From contig JABANN010000198.1 of the NCBI GenBank assembly GCA_013115125.1, forward strand, positions 1 through 53,879: 53,879 nucleotides of DNA, written 5' to 3'. Below the pieces are notes generated by a model. The model ran no database searches, was not told the origin of the DNA, and was given only the letters and a program-made list of their open reading frames with translations. Shown here piece after piece: positions 1-41,477 of the stretch. Position numbers and translations under genes: made by a program. This stretch comes from Perkinsus olseni. Taxonomy: Eukaryota. Position 1 is the stretch's first letter. Every line of letters begins with the position of its first letter.

Positions 1-739
1 TGTGGCTAACTACACTCTGTACTCTTTTAATATGGCACCTCCGGTTGTGTTGCTTCATGGCAAGGATATGACAAATGAAATCCCGTGGGGGTGCCCAATA
101 ATATTCGGCCGATGGACCTTCACGTCTTTCCGTCGTAATGGCCCTCGCCATAGCGTACTTCGCTACCACCCCTACCTATTGTAAGCCGAGCGTAATTAGT
201 AAATGCCTCCAACAGGGGTTTCTGGTAGCTCTAGGCTATTATGATTATGACAACGTCTCATGAACACGGATTTATAGTAGATCTCTCACCATCACAGTAG
301 TTGAGTTGTGTTGGCGAATTTGGTGCAGTGCACGGAGTCAATGCCGGTATCAGTTCTGATGATATGGAGGGCATTGTTTTGTGCACGGCGGTAGAGGATT
401 ATGCGAGACACATCTTTCGCCTGACACAGTGTGGTAGCGAGAACGGGAGAAAAACGGAACGATTAGGTCCGGAACATCATTGTCGTGGGCAGGCATTCTC
501 CGAAATGGATATACTCAATTATGCCCTCATAATACTGCCGCAGCTCAGCATGGAACTGGGCCTGTTATTTCTGTGCGTTGCTGCGCTTCGTGCTGCCTCC
601 CCTCGTCCAAGCAACAGCGGTCCACCTACCACGATTTTGACTCTACAGGCCGCCCCCATCGTGGGTAAAATATCTTTAATAATTGAAGTTTAATTGCTGA
701 TCCCGTTTTTAAGAGTTATGATAACGCGAGGTTGTCTCT

Positions 740-975
740 GCTGTAAGCTCTCCATCAGCTCTTTCACGTGGACCTTCATCATCCTCAGAGGCACTCCTCG
801 GATAACTCCGTACCTGTTAATGACAAGGAATGCAGAAAATGGACTCGCAAGCAAACTGACATAGTCAAATGCTCCTGCACCGTGAGACCATCGATGAGAG
901 CATCTTGCTGTTGACAGTAGCCTATATTCTTGCGGGCCTGAACACGCTCGAGCTTTCACACGATCGACTAGCGGT
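740..975 (-). pseudogene. Duplicated fragment of the ABCA gene (NBD2 region, two exon pieces plus intron)
   Basis: 740-941 is near-identical to 9743-9944 ([47 protein letters not shown]), including the intervening intron. Similarity fades inside the upstream intron at ~975. Confidence 0.9.
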
Positions 976-1172
976 AAATGATTCACTTCAATGCGAAGGC
1001 TTACCTGCGGTACTAGCTTCGTGATACAATGGGACGGTTGGGCTGCTAGCCATTTGGGTGAGACAGGCTGACGGTAGGGTTCCAAAAGTTAATACTATTA
1101 AACACACCATGAGTGTCGTAAGTAGAGAAGAGTGTCGCGACTTGGCTTTGCAAGCATACCTCGATGGTTGAG

Positions 1173-1194
1173 AAACCAACTTGGTTTAACCAAG
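1173..1194. repeat. 22-bp palindromic scar, S=AAACCAAG
   Basis: AAACCAA CTTGGTTT AACCAAG. The paralogous position in unit B (~5952-5970) lacks the extra 14 nt. Confidence 0.9.
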
Positions 1195-1475
1195 GCGAGA
1201 TAGCGAGATTCTTGGTCCTTGTGGGAGATGACAGTACGAGTTGGCGATTCTCTTAAGGGAATCCCTCCAATGGAGGGCCTCCATCGCCTTGAAGAACCTG
1301 AGATCCCGAACATAGGATGCTTCCCATATACTCTGCGGGGGATTCGGACAACCACATCGGTTTCTGAGTCGGTACGGAAGTTACTCGTATCGTGAACAAA
1401 GTTGCATCGTCACACAAGGCATGTGTCACAAGATGTTATGACTGCGTAAACCAAAGACTGACGCTTGCTCGGACA

Positions 1476-1497
1476 CCCAGTACTACTGGGCCAGTAG
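1476..1497. repeat. 22-bp palindromic scar, S=CCCAGTAG
   Basis: CCCAGTA CTACTGGG CCAGTAG, perfect. Confidence 0.9.
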
Positions 1498-1635
1498 TAA
1501 TGAAGAACGCTCCGAGTATGGCGCTGAGTAGGATCGATAGACGTAGAGATTACAGCTGAAAATTCAAACGGCAATACAGTATTTCCATGATGGTATACAA
1601 ATTGTAGTGAAGATACAATGTAGGCACACAAAAGT

Positions 1636-2664
1636 TCATCTCTTTCTACCTCTTCGCCTTCTATTTTTCTTTTTCTTCTTTTCTCTCTTTTTCTCAGTGT
1701 TCTCGGAATTGAGCGAGGGCCCAGTTGGCATCTCTCCACCCCCAGCGAACGGAGGGGTCGTCAGGGTTTCCTCATCGCTCGAAGGAACATCAACCTCCAT
1801 CAATTCTGGGCTGGTAGCTCTCTCATGCAGTGACTGACCAGCAGTAGTAGTAGCAGCAGTGAAAGTGCCTGTAGCTGTCCATATCGTGGCAGGCATTACA
1901 GCTCTGCCGGCTGTGGCCTCTATAAGGGTCGTGGCTCTCCGCATTGGAAGGGGTGGAGATATCCTAGCCCTCCCTGTCGGAGCGATCGTATCCTTGGCTG
2001 CTGTGAAAGTTGAAAGGGTCGTCTCGCCCCGTGTTGGAACGCTCAGAGGAGTCATAGCCCTTCTTGTCGCATGAGTTACCAGATGAAGGTGTTGCCCTCG
2101 AAGTGTATCTAGCTCGGGAATTCGTTCTGCATTTTCCACCATCAGCACTGGGAACAGCAGGTCGTCACCATGAGTAGAGAGAAATATATACCAGCTCTCA
2201 GCTATCGAGCACAGCTTCAGTTGCCGTGCCCATTGCCGGTGCGAAGCAACAGGAATCGAGAAAACACCATAGGACCTCTCCAATTTTCGTTCCGTGCGCT
2301 CATCCATACCGACTGGCTCGTAGCAATGTTCGACTTCACTTACGCCGTCAGGGCCGAAAGCTGCTAGTACGTCAGAAAGGACAGGAGCAGATTTCCATTT
2401 CACCTCGGCGTTGGCGATCACCTTCAATTTTCCGTAAGAGGTTAAGCCTCTGAATTTGATGTCGCTGATTAGAACGTTTTCATCGGAGCGTGCGGAGGTC
2501 ACGTCCATGGCAATACTCCGAAGGGTGCCGATAGGACGGTTTGGATCCACTCGACCTTCATAGTGACCAGCCTCAACCATCGGAGGGGAAGCACGCAGCA
2601 GATCTATGAGTGTGATTAGAAGGAAAATGATGGGAGTATGACAGGTGTGATGGCCGGCTGCCAT
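1636..2664 (-). CDS. Hypothetical protein, 342 aa: hydrophobic N-terminal stretch, Thr/Ala-rich linker, Lys/Arg-rich C-terminus
   Basis: Uninterrupted ATG-initiated ORF. IIFLLITLIDLLRA near the N-terminus, EKKREKKKKKNRRRRGRKR at the C-terminus. The first 7 codons are homologous to the start at 6606. Confidence 0.6.
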   Translation of the reverse strand: MAAGHHTCHTPIIFLLITLIDLLRASPPMVEAGHYEGRVDPNRPIGTLRSIAMDVTSARSDENVLISDIKFRGLTSYGKLKVIANAEVKWKSAPVLSDVLAAFGPDGVSEVEHCYEPVGMDERTERKLERSYGVFSIPVASHRQWARQLKLCSIAESWYIFLSTHGDDLLFPVLMVENAERIPELDTLRGQHLHLVTHATRRAMTPLSVPTRGETTLSTFTAAKDTIAPTGRARISPPLPMRRATTLIEATAGRAVMPATIWTATGTFTAATTTAGQSLHERATSPELMEVDVPSSDEETLTTPPFAGGGEMPTGPSLNSENTEKKREKKKKKNRRRRGRKR

Positions 2665-2835
2665 TTTTAATAGATACTGAGGTCTATAGTCACTATAGAC
2701 ACTATAGTTATAATGGTGTCGTATAGAGGCACTATACTATAGTATAGTACATATAGTGTCGTGTCGGTTGTGGGAAGGCGTCAAGAGTGTACCACACTAG
2801 TCTGATGGTGGCCTAGAACCGTCACCTCTGTGAGT

Positions 2836-2857
2836 TCTGCTACTAGCAGACTGCTAG
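2836..2857. repeat. 22-bp palindromic scar, S=TCTGCTAG
   Basis: TCTGCTA CTAGCAGA CTGCTAG, perfect. Confidence 0.9.
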
Positions 2858-3004
2858 TTGGTTGGCGGCGTCCCACAAAGCGCGAGGAGTTCAGCCCGTC
2901 CTGGTGAGACGCTTCAACGCACTTTCCAGTTGAAGTCTCCTTTCCTGCATCCTACACGAACGAGACGAGACGAGCGCTCTCAGTTGTGGCGCTCAGAAGA
3001 CGCG

Positions 3005-3026
3005 CCATATAGTATATGGCATATAC
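3005..3026. repeat. 22-bp palindromic scar, S=CCATATAC
   Basis: CCATATA GTATATGG CATATAC, perfect. Absent at the homologous position of unit B (~6878). Confidence 0.9.
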
Positions 3027-3072
3027 ATACATTTTCAAAACGGCCCCATCGATTTTCATATCTTGAGTCGCC

Positions 3073-3276
3073 TAATACTGCTCATANNNNNNNNNNNNNN
3101 NNNNNNNNNNNNNNNNNNNNNNNNNNNNNNNNNNNNNNNNNNNNNNNNNNNNNNNNNNNNNNNNNNNNNNNNNNNNNNNNNNNTTACTACTAATACTGCT
3201 CATACTACTAATACTGCTCATACTACTAATACTGCTCATACTACTAATACTGCTCATACTACTAATACTGCTCATA
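3073..3276. repeat. 18-bp tandem array (TAATACTGCTCATACTAC)n spanning an N gap
   Basis: About 5 perfect units at 3185-3276 and a partial unit at 3073-3086 flank the N run, so the true length is unknown. Confidence 0.95.
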
Positions 3277-3291
3277 GTATGAGCCTCATAC
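3270..3291. repeat. 22-bp palindromic scar, S=GCTCATAC
   Basis: GCTCATA GTATGAGC CTCATAC, perfect, at the edge of the 18-bp array. Confidence 0.9.
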
Positions 3292-4024
3292 TACTGTACG
3301 CCAGTAAGTCTTTTCTCACATAGTCCACATTGGACGTAGTTTCCACACGCGACCGGGCTATAGCTGAGGCCTAGTGCCGGTTTTCGATTTCCCACCTTTA
3401 TACTTCGGAGACCTAGTTCACTCCTATCACTGACAGACTGTCCGGCTGCCTCTGATGGACTTCGTATCGTATGGACTTCGTGCCTTTGTTCCATATCCAA
3501 TTGGAGGACTCCACGTACTCTATAGGAGTTGGATCGGCGGCCTCGGGGACTACGCCCTACGAATGTCTATTTAGGGCGGGGTTGCTCTGGGTTACTTGCT
3601 CCATGCGAGGTTGATTACCACAGCTTACACTGAGCGTTATAACCGCGGTTGTTGTGCTGATGCCCTTGAGCTATATTATGGCAATAATAGGGTATAACGT
3701 AAGGCGTCGTCGAATTACCGATACCATGTCCGAGACCACATCAACGTCCAGCCCCCCGAAACAAGGCGAGAGGAGTGGTACTAAGTCTAGAATATTTGTG
3801 AATGTGTCAATTCTCATCGAAGACTACCAAACAGCGGTACTGGAGGATTTATCAGAGTGTAGCGGGGCCTTCCTCTACGATTTGAGCAACACAGGTTCGC
3901 TGTATCTCAGATGACACAGAATTGGGGGATATGGCGACTGAAGCGGATGGCCAGGAAACTGCTTTGATGCGGATGCAAGCGAAGGGAAGGTAGCAGTACA
4001 CTTGATGGTCGGAAAATTTTTCTC

Positions 4025-4046
4025 ACCAGTATTACTGGTCTAGTAA
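4025..4046. repeat. 22-bp palindromic scar, S=ACCAGTAA (1 mismatch)
   Basis: ACCAGTA TTACTGGT CtAGTAA. Confidence 0.8.
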
Positions 4047-6712
4047 TGACTATCCGACCTGATAGCTGCTGACAGTAGCCTGCTGATAAACAGTACCTGC
4101 GACTACTTGTCTGAAGAGAATCTTGTCCAGGTCGATTATCAGCCTCCCTCCTGTGCAAGGAGCCGTAGAGGCTCTGAGATGCCTCGATAACTGCGATGTC
4201 GAGGTAAACAGTTCGATTTCGTATTTTTATCTGATTCCTTGGCATTGTCTCTCCGACTCTTGACGTTCAAGGTTTGCTTGGTCGGCGTTCTCTCGCAACC
4301 TTATCCTATCTACTCAGCATTCATCTATCTCTGGGTCAAGAAGAATATCGGTAAGTTCGCAGGCGCACTAGTAACACATTGGCAAATGTTCATTCTCACG
4401 AATTGCCCGTTTAAGGTGCGGACTATGCCAGCCGACTGAGCTTGATCAAGGAGAGCAGTTTGCCACTGTTGAAGGGTGTCGCTCTCATAAGCGATACGAA
4501 GGATTCTGGTCAGTGTACAGAAAATAGTCGCTGCGGTAACGGTATCTGCTTCATCACTTCAAGGTCCTCCGGCTCATGGGAATCTTTGTCGGCATTACGG
4601 CAAACATGTTATGCTGACCCCTCGGTGGGCTAAATGACTATAATGCTCGAAGTATCGCTCGGTAGTACTAATCGTGTGTTCTTTCAGCAACTCATCGACA
4701 ATCAACGAGCCAGAGGGATACCGGTTGAACAAATGGTTCACGTCCTCGGAAGAGGCCTTTGACTTCGTACAGCACATCAAGTCAGATTCGAAGGCATGGA
4801 GCTTTGTCTCTACTGGGGATGGCTCGTGAGCGTGCACATTTTGTTCTCACTTGTCGGAATGTTCTTCTATATACACTACGATGCCTCATGGGACCATTTA
4901 TGCCATGAATTTTATGCTCACCATTACAGCACTCAGAATTATATCAGTCTTGTATTATCCGACATACTTTGATAGTACCTCTTGAGTTTGTTGAGTTTAT
5001 TCATATTCACGCTTGATTGTACCGCAGCAGTTCAGTCAGCTTCGTGCTACGAATTTGCCTGAGTTGACGGGTTGACTACGAAGTTCGTAGAAGTATCTCT
5101 CTTTTTGTGACCGATGGTCACGATGCTCATCGACTTCGGCACTGTAGTACATTTGGGCCATTTGATAGCAGCGGCATTCAACAGAAGTACCGAAACGTGC
5201 CGAGCTAGAAACGTGCTGATGATTCTTCCTTGTTCTCTCAGCCCATCCGGAGATAGTTCCTCCCCTTGATGTTATAACAGGCGAGGAGGCGAGACAACAC
5301 GATACCCACTGTAACCAGGTGATTAGCGTCGGTTCAGTCAGGTTGACGCAGAATCAGCCCGTTTCTGTCAAACATACCAAAGCGACATCTGGCAAGGAAT
5401 GCTCGCGACTCCTCCCACACCGGCCGCGCTCTACACTCTGAACGTGCTGAACCAACGGAGGGACATTGACGTGAGCAGAGGGGTTAGATAGGCTGTAAAT
5501 CACCACTAAAGCCATCGGCCGCCGAAGTTCGGCCTGTCCTATTTCGTAACCAAGATTTATCAAGCTCAATTCCTGTGTAGCACAGAGAGCTGCTCGAGTT
5601 CAATCGCGTTCAGCCGTGCTCTTCCAGGTGAGGTTGTTCGTGAGGGAGTTTATCTGCGGCACTAGCTTGTGATACACTGGTATGGTTGGGCTGTTAACCA
5701 TTTGGGTGAGAGAGGATGACGGTGTATCCCATACTGCGGTTTGAATCGGTAGGTCCTCTCGTCAGGGAAATACCCATAGAACTACTGGGACCGGCCGATG
5801 TTTTCGCTGATAGCTTAATGATCAGTTCTGTCATGATTGATGATAAGTTGATATTATTTGATACGGTGTGAGTTCCGTAAGTTGGAGGAAGTGTCGTGAA
5901 GTGCTCTTACAGGTACAATACCTACCTCGATGCTGCGTATAGGCTCTCTCGCTGGTTGCGGAACCCAGACGAGATCTCGAGATTCTTGCTTCTTGCGCGA
6001 GATGAGAGTACTCTGAGCTGGCGGTTCCCTTAAGAGAATGCCTAACATATATGCACATGTTATGTGTAGATGGCACGGCGCAGTACCTGTGTCTGAGGAC
6101 ATTTCAGCTAGACTGGACTTGCGTGACACTAGTTCGATACTCTGATGTGAGCTGTCGCCTGGATCCATCCAGTCCTGTGAACCGAGGCATTCGGGGTGAG
6201 TGTCAGTGGGGCCTCCTCTGCGCATTTAACTCTGCAGATAAATCGAGAACAGGAAAGAAGACGGTATTCCCCTTTAGGCTTCACGTGATGCTTCTCCCCG
6301 ATATGTCACGCTGGCGAAAGTCAATAGAAGGCGAACATCTCGTTGTGCGCTCGAACCCCGCTGGGCTCCTCACGCAGACATCGTGATCCACAACTGTCGG
6401 TGTCAATCACACAGGCGCGTAAGAATACATGCTGCCCGCAGCGGCTACTGGATGCCGTCAACGACGATTGTAAGCTTCTTTCCATCAGCCAGACGGTGCC
6501 CGATTGTTGGCAAGTGACGGAAGGCATGGCAGTTTTTTTTCCGAAATTTAGAGAGGATTTAGAACGAACTTTCGACGATGGATTTTGTGTGACGGTCAGA
6601 TGCCATGTTTAATAGATACTTAGGACTTAAGTATTGGTTGAGGGAAGGATTCGCGAGTGTACAACATTAGCACTAGTCTGAAGGCGGACTGGGACGTCCA
6701 ACTCTGTGAGTC

Positions 6713-6734
6713 CTGCTGAATCAGCAGCGCTGAT
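6713..6734. repeat. 22-bp palindromic scar, S=CTGCTGAT (1 mismatch)
   Basis: CTGCTGA ATCAGCAG cGCTGAT. Confidence 0.8.
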
Positions 6735-7655
6735 TAGCTGACGTAGTGTCCCACAAACCATGAGGAGTTCAGCCCCTCATGGTGAAACGCTTGAACACAC
6801 TTTCTACTTGAAAATTTTTTACCTGCATCCTACACGAACGAGGCGAACGCTCTCAGTTACGGCGCTCAGAAGATGCGCCAAATGGGCGCCGCCGGTATAT
6901 TTTCAAAACGGCGGCACCGATTTTGATATCCTGAGTTGCCGATGATAGGGGTCGCAAGATCCGCTTCACTGATAATCGGTCACTACTAGGCACCCGTTCT
7001 CGCAGAGAGGACCGACGTCAACACGCTTCCCTGGCTCGACTGATGATTTCAACGCTATCTCTGCTGAATCGAGCCACTGCTACCGATCGGCCCAGTACAC
7101 CACATCACCGGAGTCGATCGGAGTGAAACGCATTTCCCACTAAGACACGATACTGCTAGTGAATCACTGAGGTCCGCGTAAATACGATACTGGTTAAAAC
7201 ACAAAAAAGGCAGATCTAATATCAACATACCCGGAAAAAACCAAACTGATATATTTATGAGATGTGTAATAGCCGGAAAGCGCCTTGGGAGGTAGGAACC
7301 CCGTACGATCCTCATACGACGGACAAACCATCATGAGATGCTTCACCGACCTCGTCTACCTAACTACTACCCGAAGCCACATTCCACGGACAATCATAGA
7401 TCATGCATGCATCAGTGTTGACTAGCGAGATTCTCACGACAAAGTTGCCGATGGTAATACACACCCGCGTGACCCACGTGGCTCATGTGACGTTAGCGAA
7501 TGAGTAAGTGGTACGCTTCCAACTTTAGATCGCGAGACTCGTCAAATGTAATATTAGATACGTTCAACTACTCGACACTGTCGACTTATATAAACATGAA
7601 CATCACAACTAACATGGCGATCACAACTAACACGGTAATCACAGACTAAGGCTTC

Positions 7656-8341
7656 CTACTCCTTTGGTTTCTCTGCTTCTGCAGCCTCCTTCGCCTTGCG
7701 AAATCTCTCGAAGAATTCGGTCCTCTTGTCATCAATGAACTTCTTAAGCCAATCTCTTCCGGCATCTTCGTATCCATCAGGGGGATTGCTGTCGATTGAA
7801 TTCATTAGCTCTTCGCAGTCTTCTTTTTTGAGCGGAGCATTGTATTTGTTTAGAATTTCTTTCACCAAATGAGCATAGGGATTTAGTCCAGCAAAAAGCC
7901 GATTTATCTCATCAGCTCGGCCGAGGGGCATCGCGGTCTCATTCCCCCGTTTCACCCAGAACCCTCCCTTCGCTCCAGTTTTGTCGTACCTGGGAGCAGT
8001 AGCACGACCAACCACAGCGTATGGCAGCAAGTGGGCAGCATCCAAACTACCAGAAACTGAATACATCCTCTTCTTTGGCCGTGTACCACTGGAAGAAAAG
8101 GTTAGTGCTCTCCAGACCCACTCTCAAGAAAGAACCCGACAAAGAGTACAGCGACACGCAGTTCTTATCCCTGGGATCGAAAGACACCTGAAGACATACG
8201 GAGTGGATTGGACCGAGCGATTGCGGGTAAGCTTAGGAGATGCACCCATTCATCTACCATAGACTGTGGGGCAGCAGCCCGCAGGGCCGTGGTAACCGTG
8301 ACCAGAGCCGGCAGTATGGCCAAGGTGAAGTAGCCGAGCAT
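7656..8341 (-). CDS. Hypothetical secreted protein, 3 exons (8341-8258, ~8187-8051, ~7989-7656)
   Basis: Signal-peptide-like MLGYFTLAILPALVTVTTALRA. GT-AG joins keep frame (QSM|VSFDPRD...FSFW|YDKTGAKGG...EKPKE*). Confidence 0.7.
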
Positions 8342-8672
8342 TGCACTGGAAGGGGGAAATGTTCAACACGTTTACAAATTCCTTTTCGAGCAGTAGATTC
8401 CGCCAGCCACAGCGATCGATTCCGCCATCGCTGCCCCTCAGGGCTTCTAGCCGTCAGATTACCGCGACTCTGCGGGGACTGTGGAACCAAACACTGGTAT
8501 TGAGACAAAGACAAATCCGCTCACAAATGCACATAAGAATGCCCTCCGCCTGTAACCGCGGAGATGCAAGGAATTAACAACTGTATATATGGTACCAATA
8601 TTAGAGGAACAAGAAACATTGCGTGAAAGATTGCGCAGTAACACAACAAGGAACAGCACTGTTAGTAAATCG

Positions 8673-11600
8673 TCAATCCTCGTCTTTTGCAGCACTCTGC
8701 TTGGCGAAGGAATTGAAAACATGCTCCAGCGTTGCCTGAGTAAGCTGGAAGTCGTCGTAACCGAGCCCTTGCTTCACGCTGGCGTCAGTCAGTCGAGTGA
8801 ACACTTCGCCAAGCTTCAGCTCTCTCGGGAGGCTGTACTCGCCAAAACCGTCTAGAGAAGCACATCCGGCGCCCAAATTTCCCTGCAGCCACCGCAGCAT
8901 ACGCTCGTGCACCTGCGCACGATGGACGCCTTCTGCAAGGGTCGGACCGCTAAACATTCGGACACCGTCTGGCTGAGGGGACCCGAGCAGCACTACGCAG
9001 TTTATGGCGCTGGAATCGGTGACACCTGACGAGCATGCACCACTATCAGCACGGTCGGGCAGAATTGCTCCTACCGTTGTCTTCAAGGAGCTCTCTAATC
9101 TCATCATCCGTACGCATGAGGTAGTCGCTCCTGTCACCCTTCTTTGCCGAAGATATCCTCCGCAGCGTCAAGGTTCTCTCACGGATGGGTGCCGGTATGA
9201 AATGAACTTGCAGCTTGTAACCAGCACCATACTCAGACTTGATCTGTTGTGAAGTCCCGAGGCATCGGAACTGACCATCGACCTACGACAACAGCAGTGA
9301 TATCGGAGATGCCTCGCCCCAACTTGTTGGTGAGACCTACTTGTATGACCATCTCATTACAAAGGGCGTCTGCTTCTTCCATGCTGTGCGTAGTGAGAAT
9401 CACCGCTGACCTCTTCGCGCGACCGTTTGCTATCTTATTTATCACGTTCCAGATATTCCTGATGGGAACCATGAAGGAAGGAACGTGACGCCGACTATGT
9501 TGGCACGGAGGAGGGTTACGAGGCGCATCATATCTGCATCCTCGGTACTCACCTTCTGGCTTCAGGGTCCACTCCAGTGGTGGGCTCATCGAGAAAGACT
9601 ATAGATGGATGGCCAATGAGGGCCATACCAACACACAGCTTCCTCTTGTTGCCTCCTGATAGTCTTGTCGCATATGAGTGGGCGTAGCGGCTGACCACAA
9701 ATAGGAGTAGACACACCTTCTGCAGGCTGCAACCATACCTCAGCTGTAAGATTTCCATCAGCTCTTTCACGTGGACCTTCATCATCCTCAGAGGCACTCC
9801 TCGGATAACTCCGTACCTGTTGGTGACAAGGAATGCAGAAAATGGATGCGCAAGAAAACTGACATAGTCAAATGCTCTTGCACTGTGAGACCATCGATTA
9901 GAGCATCTTGCTGCGGACAGTAGCCAATATTCTTGCGGGCCTGAATACGATGAAATCTTCGCTCGATCGGCTGGCCAATGGTGGTAATCGTGACCTCGTC
10001 AGTGTTTCCCGAGAGACTCCGGCCAGCCAGATAGATGTCACCAGCGGAAGGTTTCAGGAGACCGCAGAGCATCTTGAAGGTAGTAGTCTTGCCAGCGCCG
10101 TTAACGCCAAGCAGGCCGAAGATACCACCGTCCGCCAGAGCGTAGTTGAGACCACGCACGGCCCAGACCTGGGAAGAACAAGTACTGCGGCAATCAGCAT
10201 TTCTGCATCATTGAATGTTGCTACCTGCTTCTTCTTGTTGTGCTGATGGAAGACTTTCTTCAAGTTGCGTATATAAACCATCTGTGTCTCGGGATCGAGC
10301 GCTGCAACTCTTTTCTTCTCCTCAAGCACCCGATGATCCTCGAAGCCTAGCTTATCAGCCGGGACTACGACGTCCTTCTTAGTGTTCCAGCGGGTATTGC
10401 AGAGCCAGTAGTCCAGACAGATGGCCACGACTAGATAGAAGACTCCCATGATGAATAGCATAATGATATCATCGCCAGCGACGGCGGCACAGTAGTACCC
10501 CTGGCTGCCGGGTGTGGACCCTTCCACACAGTTGCCTGCTATCACTGAGGTCAGCGGCGGGACAACAACCCCGGAACGACCGTCGGGCGTTCGAACCATA
10601 CCAAGTGTGGCGAAAAACATCGTTGTGATGCCGTTGGCCAGAGGGAAGGAGGGGACCAGACGGAAGACCCACATGAGCGGTACCCCGGCAGGATTACGAA
10701 GACCACCGTAGAGAAGGAAGGCCACTACAAAAGAGCCAATCATACCGATGACCAGACCTATGCCAACTCTGATGTACGTCGCGATGGTCGTTGTTTTCGA
10801 TATCAATGACACGCAGTAGTTGAAGCCAGGAGCACAGAAACAGAAGCCCAGCAAGAGCAGCCAAGTGGCCGCCAGAGCCCTGCCGTGCAGGAAGAGGTCC
10901 AAGCCGTATATCTTGATAGAACTGAAGCAGAGTGCGGCGCATGCGAATATCGTTAGGAAGTCGTAGATCCAGCAGGATATCCAATACATAACGATGTTGC
11001 AACCACTGACGTACAACTGTTCCTTCACCAGAGAGGTCTTCTCCATCATAGCGTATGATAGCATGTTACTGGCTGCGATGATAAAGGCAATGACAAACAT
11101 ACCACCCAGAGAGAAGGACATCGACAGGTTGACCATGTCCGCGCTCTTCTGACCGTACGTGACCGGTAGAGGATGGTTCACTACAGTGGCATTGGGATGG
11201 TCCGTAGCCATTGCGTACGGGACCATATGCATGGCCGTCATATCAGCGAAGACTACTCGAGTAGTGATACCATACGCGGTAGTATCGAAAGTTGCGGTAT
11301 TATTGCCGAGCAACGATCTCGAGAAGGTTGTTACTGCCTTGCAGATTGCCTGATTCCTAGGGAATAGGGGATCGACCTTCTTCCTAGGGTTGGCCATGAA
11401 GTACCATGGTTGCATGTGCATGCACTCGACAAATTGGAAGAAGCTCAGCTTCTCTTTGGACAGATCAGTGATGACTTCCGTGTCACCAAAGACGGTCCGC
11501 AGCACCTGCGGTCGGTCATAGTCCCAATAGCCGCTGACGTGTGTTGATGGGCCAAGATCATACGGGCTATCGGTTGGCCCTAGGACCTTGGGGATAGGGT

Positions 11601-14600
11601 CCTTCAGAGCCAGCGAGGCCTTCTGTAGCCCAAGGAGAGCCAGAAGCACCAGGAAGGGTATGATGAAGCCAGTTAGGGTGGCACCCCACTTTCGGTAACC
11701 GTAGATTAGACGGCGAAGGGAAAGGATGAGAAACTGATTGAAGACGTTACGTCTCACTGGAATGTCGGCGTGGATCTTCGTCCGCTGAGCTTTGACGTCT
11801 TCTGGCGTTGGATTCTCCGTCTTGCTGCTCACCTGAGAAAATAGCACAGCAGTAAGCTCGAATGCGAAAAGTGACGGGAGCCACTGAATCATGGCGGAAC
11901 CGAACACACCAAGAGAAGCGGTTATTTCGGGTTAACTCAAAAACCGATTGCTCTAACATCGCTGTATAGACTCACCTTAAGGAAGACTTCCTCAAGATTG
12001 GTGACTGACACGCCATAGGAAGATATGCCGAGAGCCTCTTTGTCGGCATCCAAGCTCTGGAACATAGGGCCAAACTTATTCACGGCCTCGAAGGGTATCC
12101 GCAGGCCAAGCTCTAGACCAATGCTTGACACGACTGTGACTGGATAGTCACCACCGAGGCACTTGTCCACGCAGCTCAGTATGGGCTCGTCAGGGACGCT
12201 CTCCGCCGCTGTTTTGGCGATGGTAACGTTGTACCCACTACCTGTAGACGATCGTAAGAAACTTCTCATCGAACGCCGCAGCAGCAGGTACTGCTCGACG
12301 ATGAGCTTACCATAGTGGCGCTTGAGAAAGCTGGTAGATCCATAGGCAAGCAGCTTGCCATTTCCTATGATACCAACACGGTCGGCCAGGACATCAGCCT
12401 CGTCCATGTAATGTGTGGTGACACACATAATGCGTCCTTCTCGTTTGGCACGGAGGAAGTCCCACATGCTACGACGAGCACTGGGGTCCATACCGCTCGA
12501 TGGCTCATCCAGAATGACTACTTTAGGGTCGCCAACAAAGGCTACCCCTACTGACAGCTTCCTTTGCATACCACCTAATACAGAGAAAACATGTCAAAGT
12601 CTACGTCGGTGATGAGTGACGTTAAATCAGGATCGCCCTGGCTCGCCGAGGGCCATAGAGCACTGTACCACTGTATAACCAATCTGTGTGTTATTGACCA
12701 TCCTAACGCGATAGCCGGTAACGAAAGTCCGACCGCCATATGTCATGATGAGTGCTTCGATATACGCGAAGTCACCCACTGCGAGTAGCTTACCGGAAAG
12801 AGTCTTCGCCTTAGCGTTGTACTTCATGCCAAGGCCAACTTCATCTGCCAGTTTCTTCGACCCATCCGTCTTGAGCCCTCGGATCCTCGCGAAGAGATCT
12901 AGATGCTCCTTGACTGTGAGGTCACCCCAAAGGACGTTATGCTGTAGACACACACCCATGCTACGCCGAATCAACGGCATATCATCTGGCACTCTGTGGT
13001 TGAAGATACGGACATCCTGAAGTGATATTACCATAAAGGATACGCAAGACATGAGTAAATGTGGCAGTAGAGAAGACGAGGAAGTTGATGCTAGTGCGTA
13101 GAGCTCATTGGTTAACCTATCCGTTGTTATACCACAACTCCATTCCATTCCATCACCATGAGTGACTCCTGCTGATGAGTCAAGGTATCGGTATCTTATA
13201 TGACATCATCGAGTATGGTCATGGTCCATGAGCATACTCAATGCCATCACTGCGTTTATATACTCATTCGCTCCGTAGCGGGTCAAATGCATCGAAGAAG
13301 AGACTGTACGAGAGACTTTGCGGGAGACAGGAGCAAGGACTTTCTACAGTGTAGGTTATTCGGGATATCCGTGAGCATCCAAGGCTCGTCTAGTGAAGAT
13401 GCCCTGGCTGGCTCCTCCCACTTACTCCGCTTGTAGGCTTCACGACACCAGAGAGAACGTTGATGGTAGTGGACTTCCCTGCACCATTATGGCCGAGGAG
13501 GACGAAGAGCTCATCTCGGAACATCTCCAGGTCCAGACCATTAACTGCGTTGATACTACCAGACGGAGTCTTGAACCGGACCTAGGGACGGAGATCTGAC
13601 CGTATGCCGAAATTAGCTACGACTCACCTTGAGGTCGTGTACATCAACTGTTTGGCCCTCTCGTAGTAGCTCCAGCTGTTGCTGATCCCAAGTCTTTTCG
13701 ATACCACTCACTTCGTCCGGGTTAACCTCCTCAGCATCACCATCACCGCTAGAATTACGACGAGACTTTCGCGTCACGTCGCGACCTAGTATCTCATCCC
13801 AGTAACTTTTTTGGAAGGGGAAGTACCACTTCCTCGTAGCCCGATACTCATGGGGGATAACTTGGTCGAGGTAGAGATAGACCAGCGTCCAAACAAAGAA
13901 GCCAACAATGAGCATAACTACTCCTATGGTGAGGTCGAACCCGTGGTTCACGACGCTGGCTGAAATATTAGTAATACCGATACCAAACTGGTATCCAATA
14001 TTATTGCAAATCATAGTGAAGGTACATTGAGGGAAGAGGGATATGCCCCAAAGGGGCTGCTCCCGACCGAAGAGGGCCAGAGTAAAGGCGATGATGTAAT
14101 AGATAGCACATGTGAATACTGCACCAGAATTGGGACTAGAAAACAAGGTTGAAACCGCAAACGTGAACGCCATCGAGGAGAGCTGATCTAGGAAGGCTAG
14201 TAGGAAGAGCCAGAGGGAGCCGGTGATAGGCAGCATCCATAGAGAGAAGAGGAAGACTATGAGGGCTATGACGAAGTAGAATGCAAAGTACCATAGATAC
14301 CAAGACACGATGTAAGGGTAGTCCTTCAGGCCCATTACACGCATACCTGATCAGAGACAACGAGCTTCCATTCACCACCGGAGGAACTCGCGTGAGAGGG
14401 GCGAGATAGACGGAAAAGTGAGAGGAACTCTATCCGGAGTGTTGGACCGAACTCTAGGCTCAATGGGCTATGGGAAGTTCCTGGTATTCGAGGAGCCTTG
14501 AATTCACCACTGGACTAGCGAGAACAAGTACCACCGCACTTGTGTTCTACATAGAATGAAGCAAGCTTTACGGCAACTTCCTGAAAATTGCAGATCTCAA

Positions 14601-26030: not shown

Positions 26031-29000
26031 GTCCCTTCACCGTGTAATTCCTCGGCTATCAGTGGCGATTCGAGGATCATCACCTCGACTGCACCAACGC
26101 TCTCAGCTCGCCCTTCAACTATGCGACCGACGATAAGCGACTTGGCGCAGAAAGGTAAGTCAAAACGAAAGTGGATCGCCAATTCCGGACTTTCAATGTG
26201 GCACAGTACCCGCTAAGCTCTACAGAAGCTCATCAGTGCTGTAGAGCCGGTTTGAGGAGGCCCTAGTCTGCTATATAACCTCTGGGGGCCCTCAATGAGA
26301 TGGAACCGCTCTGGAGCTACAGTACTGTATCAGCATTATTCGCCTGCTGTTCCAGGTCACGAGGTGTGTACGTGTGGTGCCAGTAAGATATGGGAGAGAA
26401 TCAGAGCACGCCACGTAGCTGAGCTCCAAGAGGCTAAGTGAGCTTATCAACACCGAGCCTCGTACGATTCCCAGGGCTTCTCAACTATTGCACACGCGAA
26501 AGCCCGTGTTACCGATTTTTCAAGGTTTCGCTCTCTACGATTTGGCATAGCCTTGCTGTTCTCAGGAAAGTGAAGCAGTCTGCTGCAAAGATTCGCGAAG
26601 AGGCACGCGCCCTGGAACGGGAGAAGTTACTCTTCGAGGTACTTTCGGAAGACGCTGCAATTGAGGAATTCAGACTGGCCTACCTGGCAGGAACAAATGC
26701 AGCACTTCAAGTGCAGTAGGGAGGACTTGCAGAAGCAGAAACAAAGAGTACAAGAGATGTGGGAAGATGTGAGGCCGGGGAGAATCCAGCGCGGGTAGTC
26801 TTGCACGCTCTTCTTTCTACCGAGTTCTAAACCTACTAAATATGAGCTCGGATCGTCACGATGGGGCCTGTCAGACGAAGAGAATGCAAGAACGTGAAGG
26901 GTCCTTCAAGAGCCGAGTGGCCGAGCTGGAAACACAGGTGACGCGCCTGCTAGAAGAGAAGAAAGGATTACAGCAGGAGGTTGAAGATCTGCGGTGTGCA
27001 TCAGCTGAACAACAGGCGGCCTTTTAACATGGAACCCAACTCCGTCCCTCAGGATGGATGGTGAGGTTCTCCGAGCCGACGTAGAACAGAGCAACGCGGA
27101 AGCCGCGAAGTGGAAAAAGCAAGTCGACATATTGGAAGAACAGGCCTGTGTAGTCTATGCCCCCTCCTACCCCACCTTCTGTGAAGACTTCATCGAGGGT
27201 TACTCATCATCACATCTGACAGTGTGCGTGATGATGGTATCTCAGTGTGCACATTTCCGAACAAAGCAGGACTGCATCTTTTCTGACAAATCTATTGCGC
27301 TATAGAGCATATCCGTTGGATCAGGATTGCGCTGCTCAACTCTCGGCGGTGGAGGTGCAGCAGAAAGCGTTGAAGGCTCAGGAAGCTAAGTGGATAGCAG
27401 ATCTCAAGGCCAATAAGGTACGAAAGAAGTTATAGAATTTTCGTTTCGCTCGGCCAGAGGGCTCGCCTTCTCAGGAGGAGGTGAAAAAGGCCGAAGCCGC
27501 TGTGGAAGATGCAACCAAGCGACTAAATGAGCAAGCCACTGCATTGAGGCAGGGAGAGGAGAAGCTGGCGTAACGCGCGGAATATGGGTTTTTTTGGTGG
27601 CTTCGCTGATATCCGCGCTTTATCAGGCTCGCAAAAGAGGAACTGGCTTTGGAACGAAAGGTGCTCGCACAAGAGGGAGAGGCTTGCGAGCTCGAACATC
27701 AGCGAGCCCGATCCGCTTTGGAAGACGTGGAAGCCAAGAAGGTGATAAAATCACTCCGCGGAAAAGCCTTCGTCGGCGGCTCTTGAGTTAGCTCTGGTCA
27801 CAGTGGATGGAATCTTGTTAGGAGGAACTGAGGAGGCTTGAAGCAACTGTCAAGGATGCGATGGAGCAACAGAGTAATCGAGCCAACGAGCTGGAGAGCA
27901 AGGAGGCGGCACTCGCGTAAGGAGGCGGAAGGGCTTGCCCTTTCAGCAGCGGTGGATTCAGTACTTAAGTACTGAAAATTGATCTTTCTTCGTGATCACA
28001 TTTTCAAGGTGACATTGCTGTAGCGGAATTGAAGGTGTCATGAGCGAGCGGTCATGTGTGATGTACTTTTTTAAGGGACGAGAAGGAGCTGCTTACAGAG
28101 GAGAGAAGGATGCTCGATGAGGCCAACGAGGCCAATCGTCATGAACTTTCAAGGATACAGTGCCTTTTGGAGGAAGTCGAAGTCAAGAGAGTGAGCATGC
28201 TTCCTAGTAGCCTCCTCGAAGGATGATCTATCCTGAACGTCTCTCAGGAGGAAATCGAAAATTCGGAAGCAGCTGTCGAGGAGGCCACCAAGCGGTTGAA
28301 GGATGAATCCAGCGAACTGGAGCGCGCAAAAGCGGCTTTAGCGTATTTGTTTTCATTTGTCACGACCTGAAGCGGCCATGGAATTCTTTCAGAGAGACGA
28401 GAGAGGAACTTGCCTCGGAGAGGAGAACGCTAACTGTAGAAAGAGAGGCGAACGATCGTGAATATGCGGAGAGGAAGGCTGTCTTTTCAAGTATCGAAGC
28501 TAGGGAGGTGAGCAAATAGAGCGCTCCCGTGGCGGTTCCTTCTCGCTGGCTGATGTGAGAGCTGCTGTACGCCTTGTTCTGCCCAGAAAAAGGTCAAGAT
28601 CGCAGAAACGGCTCTGGAGGACGAGACGAATCGAGTCAACGACCAAGCCACCGCGGTAGCACGCAGAGAGGCGGCACTGATGTAATTCAAGACCCGCTCT
28701 AAGAGACTCGTCCCATGCGGAGCATTTGGGCCTGTCAGCGATGCTGAGGCGAATCTGGTATCGGAGAGAGCAGCTCTGAGTGAGCAGAGGCAGGTCATTG
28801 AGCGTGAGCAAGCAGAGCTTCGGTCCCTGATGAAAGATGTAGAAGCAGAAAGGGTGAGAAAGCTGCCCGATACCCTTTCCAACTAGAAAAAGTCGCGCTT
28901 TTCCTCGGCTGTTCAGGAGAAAGTTGCCGCCGAAGGAGCCGCTGCTGAGGAAGCCTCGAAGCGGCTCGATGAGCGAGCTGCCGAGTTGGAGCGGCAGGAA

Positions 29001-32000: not shown

Positions 32001-32871
32001 AGAAAGAAGCGAACGAGCGTGAGTATGCTGGAATGCAGTCCATTTTGGAAGAGGTCGAAGCCAGGAAGGTGATCTCGGTCGATTTTCATGTTCTCTCAAA
32101 CTCTGTCTAGGAGGAGATTGCAAATGCAGCTGCAGCGGCTGAGGAAGCAACGAGGCGAGTGGATGAGAGAGCTGCCACGCTGGACCGCAGGGAAGCTGAG
32201 CTAGTGTATAGTGAGGGGCAAAAGGCGAGCTCGTGGCTTCTCACAATTGAACAGAGGAAGTTCGGAGGGGCCCAAACTCGGCAGCAATTTCTCGTGAATC
32301 GAATTGCGCGTTCATCTGAGTTGTTGACTCTGTGCAGGTCAGAGGAAGCCAGAACTTCACCCATTAAGGCAGTCTCTCATGATGAAGATTCGCCTGAATC
32401 CTGGGATGATGCTAGAAGTGAGGATGAGGTAAGTACTCGGCCCTGAGGAGAGAGCAGAACATCTTCTTAAGCGAGAGTTAGGGATCGAGTTTCTCTTATG
32501 CTTGCATTCATTAGGGCGACCTTGACCTCCGCGAAGCTATCTGGTCCCATAAGATGGAAGTGCTTGAGCGGGAGCGGGCGAAGCTTGATGAAGAGAAAGA
32601 ACGGTTCGCTAGGCAGATGGAGCTGGAGAACGAAAATCTGAAGTGGGTTCTTGGACGCTATGGGACAGCTATCTGACACTGCTAGGGAGCGGCGCACCAG
32701 GGTAATTCAGAGAGAGAAGAAATTGGAGGCACAGAAGAAGGCGATCGAACCTGTGAGTTTAAGCGATGATGAAAGAAACGGTTCTGTTTGCTCGCTACTA
32801 CCGACATCATTCAGGAACTTCGCAAGCATCTTACCCACAGCAAGCACCCCAGCCTGGCTCCAACACCTTGA
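26031..32871 (+). CDS. Long coiled-coil repeat protein built from tandem exon pairs (5' end uncertain)
   Basis: More than 30 short E/R/K/A/L-rich exons. From 27475 to 32205, 95-nt and 115-nt exons alternate (e.g. 27627-27741 and 27822-27916). Last exon ELRKHLTHSKHPSLAPTP* ends at 32871. Confidence 0.85.
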
Positions 32872-33203
32872 ATTAACCTCGAAAATGAGGTTCATCCATG
32901 CATCCTAGAATGAAGCCGTACAGTGAATTACAGGAATTGTTTTCCAGTTCGTCCACGTGTTGACTTTCTGTCCCGGGCGCTGGAAAAGAGGGAATAGCAG
33001 TCGGTTGCAATGCTCACGTGCCACTTGCCGTGTAGCCTGACTTCCGAGGAGGGGCGTTAAGAACTCAGGTTGGCAGGATTCCTGCCAAGTCCAGGAAGTT
33101 CCTGCCGCAGGAACTAAGGAACGAACCTGTCGAGCATAAGAAAGACGGGATTCATTGTAGTTGTTGCGGCACACATTAGTTGCTAAGAGGAAGTGAGGCA
33201 TAC

Positions 33204-33252: not shown

Positions 33253-34535
33253 TACTCATCTTGACTGCCTCCCAGAGTATCTCGAAAGCGTATTGAATTC
33301 GCAAGCTTTTGTAAGCTCGATACTGACGAAGGATATCACCGAATTCAAAACGCGCAACCTCGATTCATTACTGGAAAGCCACGAGCGTAGGGACTCTCCT
33401 TTGGGGTGCTCACAAGCGAAATCTTCGGACTGACCAGGGTTGTAAACCTTGCGTTAGTTCCGTGTTGCCCTTTCTCTTAGCCGTCACGCATAGAAATCTG
33501 TCGGGTGAAGAGCATTGAGGCTACGCGGACCCTGTGGGAGAGACATGTCGGTGAAGCTAGGGATGCATGGTTTCGAGTCCCGTAAGAAACTTGCACCCCT
33601 GAGAAGTGAATGATCGTCATATTAGAAGATTCCCGAAGCTCACCTAATTTGTATCCTGAAAGCTGAAACTGACGACGCATCTACTATGCCCAGAGGCACT
33701 AGGCCAGAGCAATCTTTAGGTCGAGCATGCAGGATTTGAAGCCGCTCAGGTCAAGGTCGCGCGGCCATTAACATCACACTCGTCGAAGAGAATCTCAGCT
33801 CGCACATTAATGCACGTGTTAACGCACCCAAGTCCCAACTAAGGGACACTACGCTAACACAAATGCTCGTTGTACCGCCACAAAAGGGCGGCTGCGTACC
33901 ACCCCATATGGAAGGAAGTCGGCTTGCTAGATCAGCGCCGTACATGTGGACGTCAAGCTGGTTGGCCGCATCTCATACCCTCAACATGATGAAGTGTTCT
34001 CGTGCGATCTTGTATTCAGCGATGAGGTCTCCTCGTGGTCGGGAGTTGAAGGAAGCATGACACCTGAACAAAGTGCACAGTTCATAAAAACCTCGCTAGC
34101 TCGTCCATTCCGGCTTGGTATATCCCTTGCTATCTGCAGTCGATAATGGAGTCTCTGAGCAGGCTCCATATTGAATCCTCGGCCATGTCGGGTAGCTAGT
34201 AGTCTTCGACTATGGCTGCGATGATTACGCCTTGCATACGCGCTGGAAGAGGGACGACAAAATAGGAGATGAGTAATGCAAAAGAAAGTTGACCGAAGCG
34301 AGTCTGAGTCTTTCTGCGGTGAGCGTGATCACCCGCGGGTATATGAGCCTCGGCCTGAGCTGTTTCGAATCTTGCATGCGCGACCTAAAGATACTTCTGC
34401 ACGCATATCTTAGAGTTGAGCATGCAAGATACGGAACAGGTCAGGTAAGAGCATGTGAGCCTATTCATGGAAACTCTAAATTCAGCAGTGCTCGACTCTC
34501 ATGAATCTCGGTTTCCATTAATTCTAGACTTAGTT

Positions 34536-36691: not shown

Positions 36692-37235
36692 GCGCGCTAT
36701 CACTGTTTTCATGCTTAATTGCCTCCTCTTTTTGTGTTTTCGTTGGAATGCTCATGATGAGCAGCTCATACGGTAGCGTCGTACAGGTAGTATTTTTAGC
36801 CTTTTCACTAGCTTTTGCATGTCACAGCTGGATATTGGCTCGACTATTCCCCTAGTCTAGGACTCCTAGACGAACACGTGGAGCTATTCACAGGGCGATG
36901 AGTGTAAAATCATTCCAAACAATAGCAGGTGCCGGTCGCTGGAAGTGGAGGGAGAACGTCGAGCTTGCAGTTTCCTGCCAGGTCTTCAACCAGCATCCTC
37001 ATATTGATCACTGATGAATCACCTGATAGCCACAGCATTGGTTGATAACACAGAAATGACGCTCGTCTCTCATGCCTTACCATCCGATTTGTATGGGAAA
37101 CGCCAGTCTAATGGCCCACTCGGGGACCATCATTGTCAGTATGTAACTGCAGAAGCCTTGCAAACATTTTCTTTGAGGACCGAGTAGGATTCGAGCTACC
37201 CGTCCTAGTGGTTTCTCCGTGCCAAGTTCGTACCC

Positions 37236-38143: not shown

Positions 38144-38687
38144 GCGCGCTATCACTGTTTTCATGCTTAATTGCCTCCTCTTTTTGGGTTTGCGTTGGAA
38201 TGCTCATGATAAGCAGCTCATACGGTAGCGTCGTACAGGTAGTATTTTTAGCCTTTTCACTAGCTTTTGCATGTCACAGCTGGATATTGGCTCGACTATT
38301 CCCCTAGTCTAGGACTCCTAGACGAACACGTGGAGCTATTCACAGGGCGATGAGTGTAAAATCATTCCAAACAATAGCAGGTGCCGGTCGCTGGAAGTGG
38401 AGGGAGAACGTCGAGCTTGCAATTTCCTGCCAGGTCTTCAACCAGCATCCTCATATTGATCACTGATGAATCACCTGATAGCCACAGCATTGGTTGATAA
38501 CACAGAAATGACGCTCGTCTCTCATGCCTTACCATCCGATTCGTATGGGAAACGCCAGTCTAATGGTCCACTCGAGGACCATCATTGTCAGCATGTTACT
38601 GCAGAAGCCTTGCAAACATTTTCTTTGAGGACCGAGTAGGATTCGAGCTACCCGTCTTAGTGGTTTCTCCGTGCCAAGTTCGTATCC

Positions 38688-41223: not shown

Positions 41224-41477
41224 GGATGAGATCGAAAGTTCTAACTGCTGCTCGCAGGAAGTGGAATCAACTTGATAAGGTGATGAAGTCCTACGTGGTC
41301 TACTACATCCAGCGCGAATGCACAATGTACAGTTCAATGCAACTAGCAGTCTGCACTGCTTGCCTGCCAGCGTCACAAGGGCACGGGACATCGCGTCACA
41401 CAAAGAATCATCGTGAGCCGTTCTCTTGATATTCACCCTCTAGTAAATGACAGTCTGAGCCTCAAACTCTGAGGACT

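What the first reader, a model, noticed from the sequence alone, without database searches (positions are those of the whole stretch)
1173..6734. Fixed-geometry 22-bp palindromic scars S[1-7]+revcomp(S)+S[2-8]: a stereotyped transposon-excision repair signature
Seen: seven sites in 5.6 kb share the same geometry around different 8-mers S: 1173 AAACCAAG, 1476 CCCAGTAG, 2836 TCTGCTAG, 3005 CCATATAC, 3270 GCTCATAC (perfect), 4025 ACCAGTAA and 6713 CTGCTGAT (1 mismatch). An eighth perfect one is at 34536. Each equals a +14-nt insertion, and at 1173 and 3005 the paralogous copy lacks it. All seven have A at position 7. Since 14 bases are fixed by the other 8, chance expectation is about 4^-14 per position (~2e-4 per window at uniform composition). 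Known: hAT transposons (Ac/Ds, Tam3, hobo/Hermes, Ascot-1) make 8-bp TSDs, several prefer nTnnnnAn targets, and they excise via flank hairpins that lose the element-adjacent base and leave palindromic nucleotides, usually of variable length. Inference: both hairpins are opened and the two 8-nt overhangs, which are complementary because of the TSD, anneal to give one invariant product. That implies a deterministic microhomology-driven repair route and a readable record of past hAT visits, each leaving a +14 frameshift.
Basis: partly seen in the sequence, partly recalled or inferred. Interest (0 to 1): 0.88.

Follow-up and report, generated by a model that had tools for sequence, protein, structure and literature searches.

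The report
Uniform 22-base transposon excision scars
A stretch of a Perkinsus-like protist genome is dotted with 22-base double palindromes of one fixed geometry, best read as healed wounds left each time a hAT-type jumping gene cut itself out, so the DNA keeps a readable record of past transposon visits.

Summary
A further 5 have one change and 8 have two. Only k=8 with one base lost per junction is enriched, and only odd-centred palindromes are in excess. The reconstructed 8-base target words show a two-fold symmetric preference, pyrimidine at position 2 and purine at 7 (33 of 40 half-sites). One variant site carries both flank palindromes of the same word joined through filler. Independent contigs of a source-like run reproduce the eight scars between 1173 and 6734, and a divergent strain keeps two of them. 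All this fits excision of a transposon that makes 8-bp target duplications and flank hairpins, hAT-like. Any pair of hairpin openings that together expose 8 or more bases converges on this one product through the complementarity given by the duplication. Not shown: the element itself (none in the window), clean empty or occupied alleles, and the repair enzymes. Classical 1-2-base footprints cannot be excluded. The footprint chemistry is known; the uniform, dense, full-length form, in an alveolate, appears undescribed.

The parts
1173..1194 (.). perfect 22-base scar
   Evidence: reproduced in X1 contig 789-3086 with 0 differences; present in the divergent strain X7 contig 958-1456 with 0 gaps
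   Evidence: X1 and X7 contigs as for 1173
1476..1497 (.). perfect scar
   Evidence: X1 contig
2836..2857 (.). perfect scar; the paralogous place 6713 also carries a scar with the same right border
   Evidence: X1 contig; lies in the stretch 2530-3086 where the X7 contig is 14 bases shorter
3005..3026 (.). perfect scar; the paralogue has a 3-change scar 3 bases upstream (6875)
   Evidence: X1 contig
3270..3291 (.). perfect scar in the last unit of an 18-base tandem array
   Evidence: X1 contig 3247-9783
34536..34557 (.). perfect scar
674..695 (.). scar with one change (in the middle copy)
4025..4046 (.). scar with one change
   Evidence: X1 contig
6713..6734 (.). scar with one change, in paralogue B
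   Evidence: X1 contig
36749..36770 (.). scar with one change, in tandem unit 1; its copy in unit 2 (38201) has two
41453..41474 (.). scar with one change (in the middle copy)
1412..1433 (.). scar with two changes
   Evidence: class: 8 seen, 0.25 expected
4065..4086 (.). scar with two changes
4896..4917 (.). scar with two changes
5513..5534 (.). scar with two changes
33689..33710 (.). scar with two changes
36849..36870 (.). scar with two changes; an identical copy at 38301 in the next tandem unit shows it predates that duplication
38201..38222 (.). tandem-unit-2 copy of the 36749 scar, two changes
38301..38322 (.). tandem-unit-2 copy of the 36849 scar
33070..33115 (.). variant footprint: two separate odd-centred palindromes with 9-base arms (7 bases of the target word plus 2 of unique flank), both built on the same 8-base word, joined through 8 filler bases instead of merging
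   Evidence: my own parsing of the sequence
2677..2760 (.). block of nested palindromes, mostly absent from paralogue B; possibly a compound footprint, unresolved

Best explanation
The 22-mers are excision footprints of a cut-and-paste transposon that makes 8-bp target-site duplications (TSDs) and leaves hairpin-capped flanks with a one-base offset. That is the chemistry known for hAT elements. The inferred sequence of events is as follows. (1) The element inserts and duplicates an 8-base word S, preferring pyrimidine at position 2 and purine at position 7. (2) At excision, each flank's 3'-OH, made by a nick one base inside the flank, attacks the opposite strand. The left hairpin then reads S1..S7, the complement of S8, then back; the right one is its mirror image. 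(3) The hairpins are opened several bases from the tip on the 3' side and unfold. (4) The left tail now ends in part or all of revcomp(S), and the right tail carries its complement, because both derive from the TSD. (5) Whenever the two openings together expose 8 or more bases, the tails abut or anneal in register. Flaps are trimmed, gaps are filled, and the result is always S[1-7]+revcomp(S)+S[2-8], a net +14 bases. The uniform geometry therefore reflects convergence through TSD-derived microhomology, not a fixed cut. Scars accumulate in gene-poor DNA and decay by point mutation. Shown here: the geometry, its statistics, the odd centres, the target symmetry, the variant and the read support. 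Inferred: the element, the hairpins and the repair route.
For: Counts: 9 perfect, 5 one-change and 8 two-change sites against 0, 0 and 0.25 in shuffles. Geometry: only k=8 with one base lost per junction is enriched, and even-centred geometries give none. Palindromes: odd-centred ones with arm >=7 number 30 vs 3.0 and with arm >=8 number 10 vs 0.5; even-centred give 3 vs 2.1 and a 2-base loop 4 vs 3.0. This matches the Ac/Ds rule that palindromic insertions are centred on the complement of the base next to the transposon end (PMC5873905, passages). Convergence: all nine splits p+q=8 return the same 9 sites. Target words of 20 unique sites: pyrimidine at position 2 in 17 of 20, purine at position 7 in 16 of 20, and T2 or A7 in 15 of 20 (binomial tail 0.0035). 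This is a relaxed form of nTnnnnAn, reported for Hermes (PMC2803484, passages) and hobo (PMC11226609, passages). Variant at 33070-33115: both flank palindromes of one word sit side by side, each running 2 bases into unique flank. Reality: X1 contigs are identical over 789-3086 and 3247-9783. Divergent strain X7 keeps 1173 and 1263 (contig 958-1456, 0 gaps; 7 of its 9 substitutions are listed and all lie outside the scars). X7 is exactly 14 bases shorter over 2530-3086, which holds two perfect scars. Age series: two scars are copied in both units of a 1452-base tandem repeat. Distribution: no site with <=2 changes lies between 6735 and 33688, the part holding the expressed ABC-transporter and cysteine-desulfurase genes.
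Against: No transposon with an 8-bp TSD and inverted ends is in the window, and none of 38 ORFs has a transposase domain. No clean empty or occupied allele was seen; the position of the 14-base shortfall in X7 was not shown (table cut). T at 2 and A at 7 occur together in only 1 of 20 words, and C at 2 and G at 7 are as common as T and A, so the match to nTnnnnAn is partial. All studied hAT systems give heterogeneous footprints (28 types among 128 events in Candida, PMC5873905), whereas here one type dominates the detectable range. At all three places where paralogues A and B can be compared, both copies carry palindromic scars at the same or nearly the same position, which needs an added assumption of target hot spots. 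My ten literature searches found no paper reporting hAT in Perkinsus. The one-base offset of the first nick in Hermes is recalled (Zhou et al. 2004), not read here.
Confidence: 0.72

Rival explanations
1. The same footprint mechanism, but the element belongs to another superfamily with 8-bp TSDs, such as a Mutator-like or Merlin-like element, and not to hAT.
For: The Mutator-like element Muta1 has 8-9-bp TSDs and forms hairpins on flanking DNA in vitro (PMC5499845, passages). Merlin elements have 8-9-bp TSDs, and Merlin-related transposase ORFs are reported in Perkinsus marinus (PMC8101967, passages). No hAT report for Perkinsus was found.
Against: More than 90% of Muta1 excisions in yeast were precise (PMC5499845). 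A one-base offset and a position-2/position-7 target rule are documented for hAT only. No TSDs or inverted ends could be found for the P. marinus Merlin copies. No 9-base class was seen here (k=9: 0 perfect, 0 one-change).
Confidence: 0.14
2. Replication template switching or microhomology-mediated break-induced replication makes small inverted triplications without any transposon.
For: Template switching is known to create hairpin-forming inverted copies (PMC8794818, listing and abstract only). The product is formally an inverted triplication.
Against: Such processes have no reason to pick exactly 8 bases with exactly one base lost at each junction. Lengths 6, 7, 9, 10 and 11 and even-centred forms are not enriched. 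The symmetric position-2/position-7 preference points to a dimeric protein choosing the site.
Confidence: 0.04
3. The palindromes are functional sequence elements, for example protein-binding or cruciform-forming sites kept by selection.
For: Some remain perfect while the flanks differ by about 2% between strains. Paralogues carry palindromes at the same places.
Against: The words differ from site to site with only a two-position preference. There is a continuous decay series. The sites lie in barely expressed DNA (depth 0-4 in the RNA runs over 1-8000). With 44 scar bases at 1.8% divergence, under one change is expected, so perfection in X7 carries no weight.
Confidence: 0.03
4. Assembly or library artefact.
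For: Palindromes can arise from chimeric reads, and an assembly gap lies nearby (3087-3183).
Against: Logan contigs of run X1 at depth about 80 reproduce eight scars with 0 differences, and a divergent strain carries two of them inside a contig with 9 substitutions. Tn5 library gaps are 9 bases (PMC11226609), not 8.
Confidence: 0.01

Closest known systems
Ac/Ds (hAT) excision footprints in plants, Saccharomyces cerevisiae and Candida albicans
   Same: TSD copies are retained on both sides. Palindromic (P) nucleotides are centred on the complement of the base next to the element. Junctions use microhomology in 85-100% of events in Arabidopsis and 88-89% in yeast. Palindrome arms reach 20 nt in yeast (PMC5873905, passages).
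   Different: Those footprints are heterogeneous (28 types in 128 Candida events) and mostly carry 0-3 P nucleotides. Here the detectable footprints are almost all the one full-length form in which the two P tracts merge into a complete inverted copy of the TSD, and they are seen as fixed genomic fossils, not experimental revertants. I found no description of this exact product, but Yu et al. 2004, Huefner et al. 2011, Lazarow et al. 2012 and Colot et al. 1998 were not readable here, and supplements were closed.
Ascot-1 of Ascobolus immersus (Colot et al. 1998, Mol Cell Biol 18:4337)
   Same: By its title: a Ds-like element with extensive but non-random footprint diversity and parallels to V(D)J hairpins.
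   Different: The paper is not held. I saw only its citation, so no detailed comparison is possible. The host is a fungus, not an alveolate.
V(D)J coding joints with P nucleotides
   Same: Hairpin-capped coding ends are opened off-centre, which gives palindromic additions. From recall, abnormally long P tracts are described where normal hairpin opening is defective (scid mice).
   Different: RAG hairpins form without the one-base offset, so their palindromes are even-centred. There is no TSD, hence no built-in 8-base complementarity between the two ends. This row rests on recall except for the hAT-V(D)J link (PMC5499845, PMC2803484 passages).
TSD-derived microhomology in repair of mPing excision sites (PMC4561436)
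   Same: The duplication made at insertion supplies the microhomology that steers repair to one outcome (title and start of the abstract only).
   Different: mPing has a 3-bp TSD and no flank hairpin, and the steered outcome is precise restoration, not a +14 palindromic scar.

Membership tests
hAT-type excision footprint | 8-bp target-site duplication retained on both sides of the joint | tested here: met
   Only k=8 is enriched: 9/5/8 sites at 0/1/2 changes vs 0/0/0.4 in shuffles, and no perfect site at k=6, 7 or 9-11 beyond chance.
hAT-type excision footprint | [quoted passage not shown] | tested here: met
   Each scar has two 15-base odd palindromes whose centres are the complements of S8 and S1. 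Only odd-centred palindromes are in excess (30 vs 3.0 at arm >=7; even-centred 3 vs 2.1). The rule comes from PMC5873905.
hAT-type excision footprint | Target consensus nTnnnnAn (Ac/hobo/Hermes group) | tested here: inconclusive
   T2 or A7 occurs in 15 of 20 words (p=0.0035) but both together in only 1 of 20. The clear signal is pyrimidine at 2 (17 of 20) and purine at 7 (16 of 20), a relaxed form of the rule. Consensus from PMC2803484 and PMC11226609.
hAT-type excision footprint | A hAT transposase or hAT-type non-autonomous element in the same genome | not testable with these tools
   No whole genome is held. None is in the window (38 ORFs without a transposase domain). No paper was found.
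hAT-type excision footprint | Allelic series: empty site (S), occupied site (S-element-S), scar | tested here: inconclusive
   The X7 contig over 2530-3086 is exactly 14 bases shorter, but the position was not shown. The paralogues are not clean empty sites.
Mutator-like or Merlin-like footprint | TSD of 9-11 bp (typical Mutator-like elements) or 8-9 bp (Merlin, Muta1) | tested here: inconclusive
   Eight bases is compatible with Muta1 and Merlin. No 9-base class was seen (k=9: 0/0/2, and one of the two hits is the variant at 33090).
Replication template-switch inverted triplication | Broad, microhomology-dependent length distribution with no fixed unit | tested here: not met
   There is a single sharp class at k=8 with one base lost per junction.

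The most novel reading that the evidence does not exclude
In this alveolate, breaks left by a hAT-like transposon are healed almost only by unfolding the flank hairpins far from the tip and annealing the 8-base complementarity supplied by the target duplication. On this reading the apex-opening, Ku-type end joining that gives the small, varied footprints of plants, yeasts and animals is weak or absent. The genome would then carry thousands of identical-geometry +14-base scars (about 0.4 per kb here, 1.7 per kb in the first 7.5 kb). That would be a countable fossil record of cut-and-paste traffic showing local hopping trails and recurrent hits at the same homologous positions, even where no element remains.
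Probability: 0.35. Interest if true: 0.7.

Novelty: new variant of a known kind. Interest (0 to 1): 0.55.

Why it matters
Excision footprints are normally seen a few at a time in revertant screens. They are usually too short and varied to be recognised in a bare genome, so past cut-and-paste activity is invisible once the element has left. Here the footprint is long (14 determined bases) and uniform. It can therefore be found from sequence alone with essentially no false positives, dated by its decay, and used to rebuild the target word. If it holds genome-wide, it gives a direct count of transposon visits, target preference, local hopping and hot spots in a lineage (Perkinsozoa) whose DNA transposons are barely described. 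It also gives a natural read-out of how hairpin-capped breaks are repaired there, which is useful background for genome-editing work in these protists. Each scar adds 14 bases, so the process is also a distinct source of frameshifting indels. That fits the absence of scars from the expressed genes of the window.

Tried and rejected
- Whole-genome scan: not possible, because no genome is held.
- Intact elements: a scan for perfect 8-bp TSDs with inverted ends, then one allowing one TSD mismatch, gave only tandem-repeat artefacts and chance pairs.
- Transposase domains: 38 ORFs of 110 aa or more (of 71 listed) gave no transposase domain.
- Frame restoration: removing each scar, or all of 1173, 1263 and 1476 together, restored no longer ORF, so no broken gene could be shown.
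- Classical short footprints with 1-7 palindromic bases: not enriched. Power is poor at 0-2 bases.
- Protein atlas: it gave nothing for the 366-aa ORF at 1636-2736 (best score 0.77) and only 'eukaryotic ABC transporter' for 10054-11931.
- Earlier scan notes: none for this genome or its relatives, and none on such scars.
- Papers not held: Colot 1998, Hickman 2014 and Yu 2004.
- Search for end-joining genes in Perkinsus: none of the 12 papers listed mentions Perkinsus.
- First guess of a basidiomycete fungus (from intron size and a 43-Mb genome): dropped.
- Parts of the laid stretch without cover in the RNA runs X12 and X13: not used as evidence of absence.

Full report
**Observation**

I read 1100-6800 and scanned the whole window by script. 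Those at 1173, 1476, 2836, 3005, 3270 and 34536 are perfect instances of S[1-7]+revcomp(S)+S[2-8]. Those at 4025 and 6713 have one mismatch. The example at 1173 reads AAACCAACTTGGTTTAACCAAG. Three further perfect sites (1263, 39867, 47269) and several near-perfect ones were missed.

With 14 of 22 bases fixed by the other 8, about 2e-4 sites are expected in 53,879 bases. Block shuffles gave 0 in every run. Scoring each 22-mer by the fewest changes from a perfect scar gives 9, 5, 8 and 13 sites with 0, 1, 2 and 3 changes. Shuffle means are 0, 0, 0.25 and 3.6. So about 22 sites are secure, and roughly nine more of the 3-change class are probably real.

**Geometry tests**

- Among k=4-13 with 0, 1 or 2 bases lost per junction, only k=8 with one base lost stands out for perfect sites.
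- The same holds when up to two changes are allowed, tested for k=6-11: 9/5/8 against 0/0/0.4, while k=9 gives 0/0/2 and all even-centred forms give none.
- Odd-centred palindromes are in clear excess: arm 7 or more, 30 against 3.0; arm 8 or more, 10 against 0.5.
- Even-centred palindromes (3 against 2.1) and those with a two-base loop (4 against 3.0) are not in excess.
- A one-base centre is what published Ac/Ds footprints show: palindromic insertions centred on the complement of the base next to the transposon end (PMC5873905, passages).

**Why the product is uniform**

A general hAT footprint can be written as S[1-7], then p palindromic bases from the left hairpin, then q from the right, then S[2-8]. 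Every split with p+q=8 gives the same string, and all nine splits return the same 9 sites. If the openings together expose more than 8 bases, the two tails end in complementary sequence, because both derive from the target duplication. Annealing in register followed by flap removal and fill-in then gives the same 22-mer. This last step is my inference. The fixed geometry therefore needs no fixed cut.

Footprints with p+q of 3 to 7 are rare (2 seen, about 0.6 expected). Those with p+q of 0 to 2 cannot be told from background (10 seen, 9.5 expected). 'One invariant product' is therefore not fully testable.

**A variant that shows both hairpins**

At 33070-33115 two odd-centred palindromes with 9-base arms lie side by side. 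Both are built on the same 8-base word, and each runs 2 bases into its own unique flank. They are joined through 8 filler bases. This is what is expected if both hairpins were opened 10 bases from the tip and then joined without annealing. Template switching does not readily explain it.

**Target preference**

I rebuilt the target word for 20 unique sites with two changes or fewer.
- Position 2 is a pyrimidine in 17 of 20, and position 7 a purine in 16 of 20 (33 of 40 half-sites).
- T at 2 or A at 7 occurs in 15 of 20 (binomial tail 0.0035), but both together in only one.
- A two-fold symmetric preference at positions 2 and 7 is the pattern reported for Hermes and hobo as nTnnnnAn (PMC2803484 and PMC11226609, passages). 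Here it is a relaxed nYnnnnRn.

**Reality and age**

- Contigs of the source-like run X1 (depth about 80) match 789-3086 and 3247-9783 with no difference. They cover the eight scars from 1173 to 6734.
- The divergent strain X7 has a contig over 958-1456 with 9 substitutions and no gaps, so it carries the scars at 1173 and 1263. Seven of the nine substitutions are listed and lie outside the scars; two are not shown.
- Another X7 contig covers 2530-3086 with 543 letters against 557, listed as 14 gaps. This stretch holds two perfect scars, so an empty site is plausible, but the table was cut and the position is unknown.

Two decayed scars occur as identical or near-identical copies in two units of a 1452-base tandem repeat, so they predate that duplication. 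Together with the decay series, this points to activity over a long time.

**Context**

The best matches of the cysteine-desulfurase ORF are from Perkinsus olseni (88%) and P. marinus (84%). The window is therefore from a Perkinsus-type alveolate. Runs X12 and X13 are spliced RNA identical to the window, with introns of about 46-58 bases. They define an ABC-transporter gene (about 8.5-15.7 kb, minus strand) and the desulfurase gene (18-20 kb).

No scar with two changes or fewer lies between 6735 and 33688. Thirteen lie in the first 7.5 kb and nine between 33.7 and 47.3 kb. Removing scars restores no long ORF.

**Paralogues**

The stretch 700-3086 has a diverged copy at about 5650-6950. Opposite 1173 the copy has an imperfect palindrome. 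Opposite 3005 it has a 3-change scar displaced by 3 bases. Opposite 2836 it has the one-mismatch scar at 6713, built on a different word but with the same right border.

The perfect scars must be younger than the duplication, because the flanks differ by 15-20%. These are therefore independent events at homologous places, which implies target hot spots.

**What is missing**

No element with an 8-bp duplication and inverted ends is in the window. No transposase domain was found in 38 ORFs. Ten literature searches found no report of hAT or of such scars in Perkinsus. Reported DNA transposons there are Dada, with 6-7-bp duplications (PMC3706591), and Merlin-related ORFs without recognisable ends (PMC8101967). 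Mutator-like Muta1 also forms flank hairpins and makes 8-9-bp duplications, but excises precisely in more than 90% of cases (PMC5499845).

**Verdict**

The best reading (0.72) is a hAT-type excision footprint made uniform by microhomology from the target duplication. Another 8-bp-duplicating superfamily is the main rival (0.14). The chemistry is known. The dominance, density and full-length form of the scar, and its host lineage, appear new. I file it as a new variant of a known kind, interest 0.55.

Noticed in passing
window 1-73: The first 73 bases are a multi-copy repeat. A 147-base X1 contig covers them at depth 1085 against about 80 elsewhere, and contigs of all four runs, RNA included, diverge right after position 73.
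   Followed up: no
window 3087-3276: An assembly gap of 97 N sits in an array of an 18-base unit (5.1 perfect copies after the gap). A perfect scar sits in the last unit.
   Followed up: partly
window 35785-39589: Three tandem copies of a 1452-base unit (95-100% alike). Parts of the unit recur inverted at 33243-33478, so the 33-40 kb scar cluster lies in a foldback-like repeat structure.
   Followed up: no
window 27855-32209: Nine to twelve diverged copies of a 51-66-base motif recur every 310-730 bases, in a stretch with strong GC skew (0.19-0.24). It looks like a long repetitive coding region with a repeated exon-like unit.
   Followed up: no
window 13453-13515: A 63-base piece inside the ABC-transporter gene region also occurs elsewhere in the genome. 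Contigs of X1, X12 and X13 carry it with other flanks (tables 7 and 8).
   Followed up: no
window 50147-50219 (minus strand): A single tRNA gene (Rfam RF00005, 55 bits). Dada transposons of Perkinsus marinus are reported to target tRNA genes (PMC3706591), but none is evident here.
   Followed up: no
window 700-3086 and about 5650-6950; also 736-972 and 9739-9975: Diverged paralogous segments (80-89% alike) include an ORF of 366 aa (1636-2736, minus strand) with no Pfam family and no atlas relative.
   Followed up: partly
window 5090-6174, run X7: The divergent strain's contig is 27 bases longer than the window here, and 12 bases shorter over 3524-4118. The positions were not shown, so any link to scars is unknown.
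   Followed up: no
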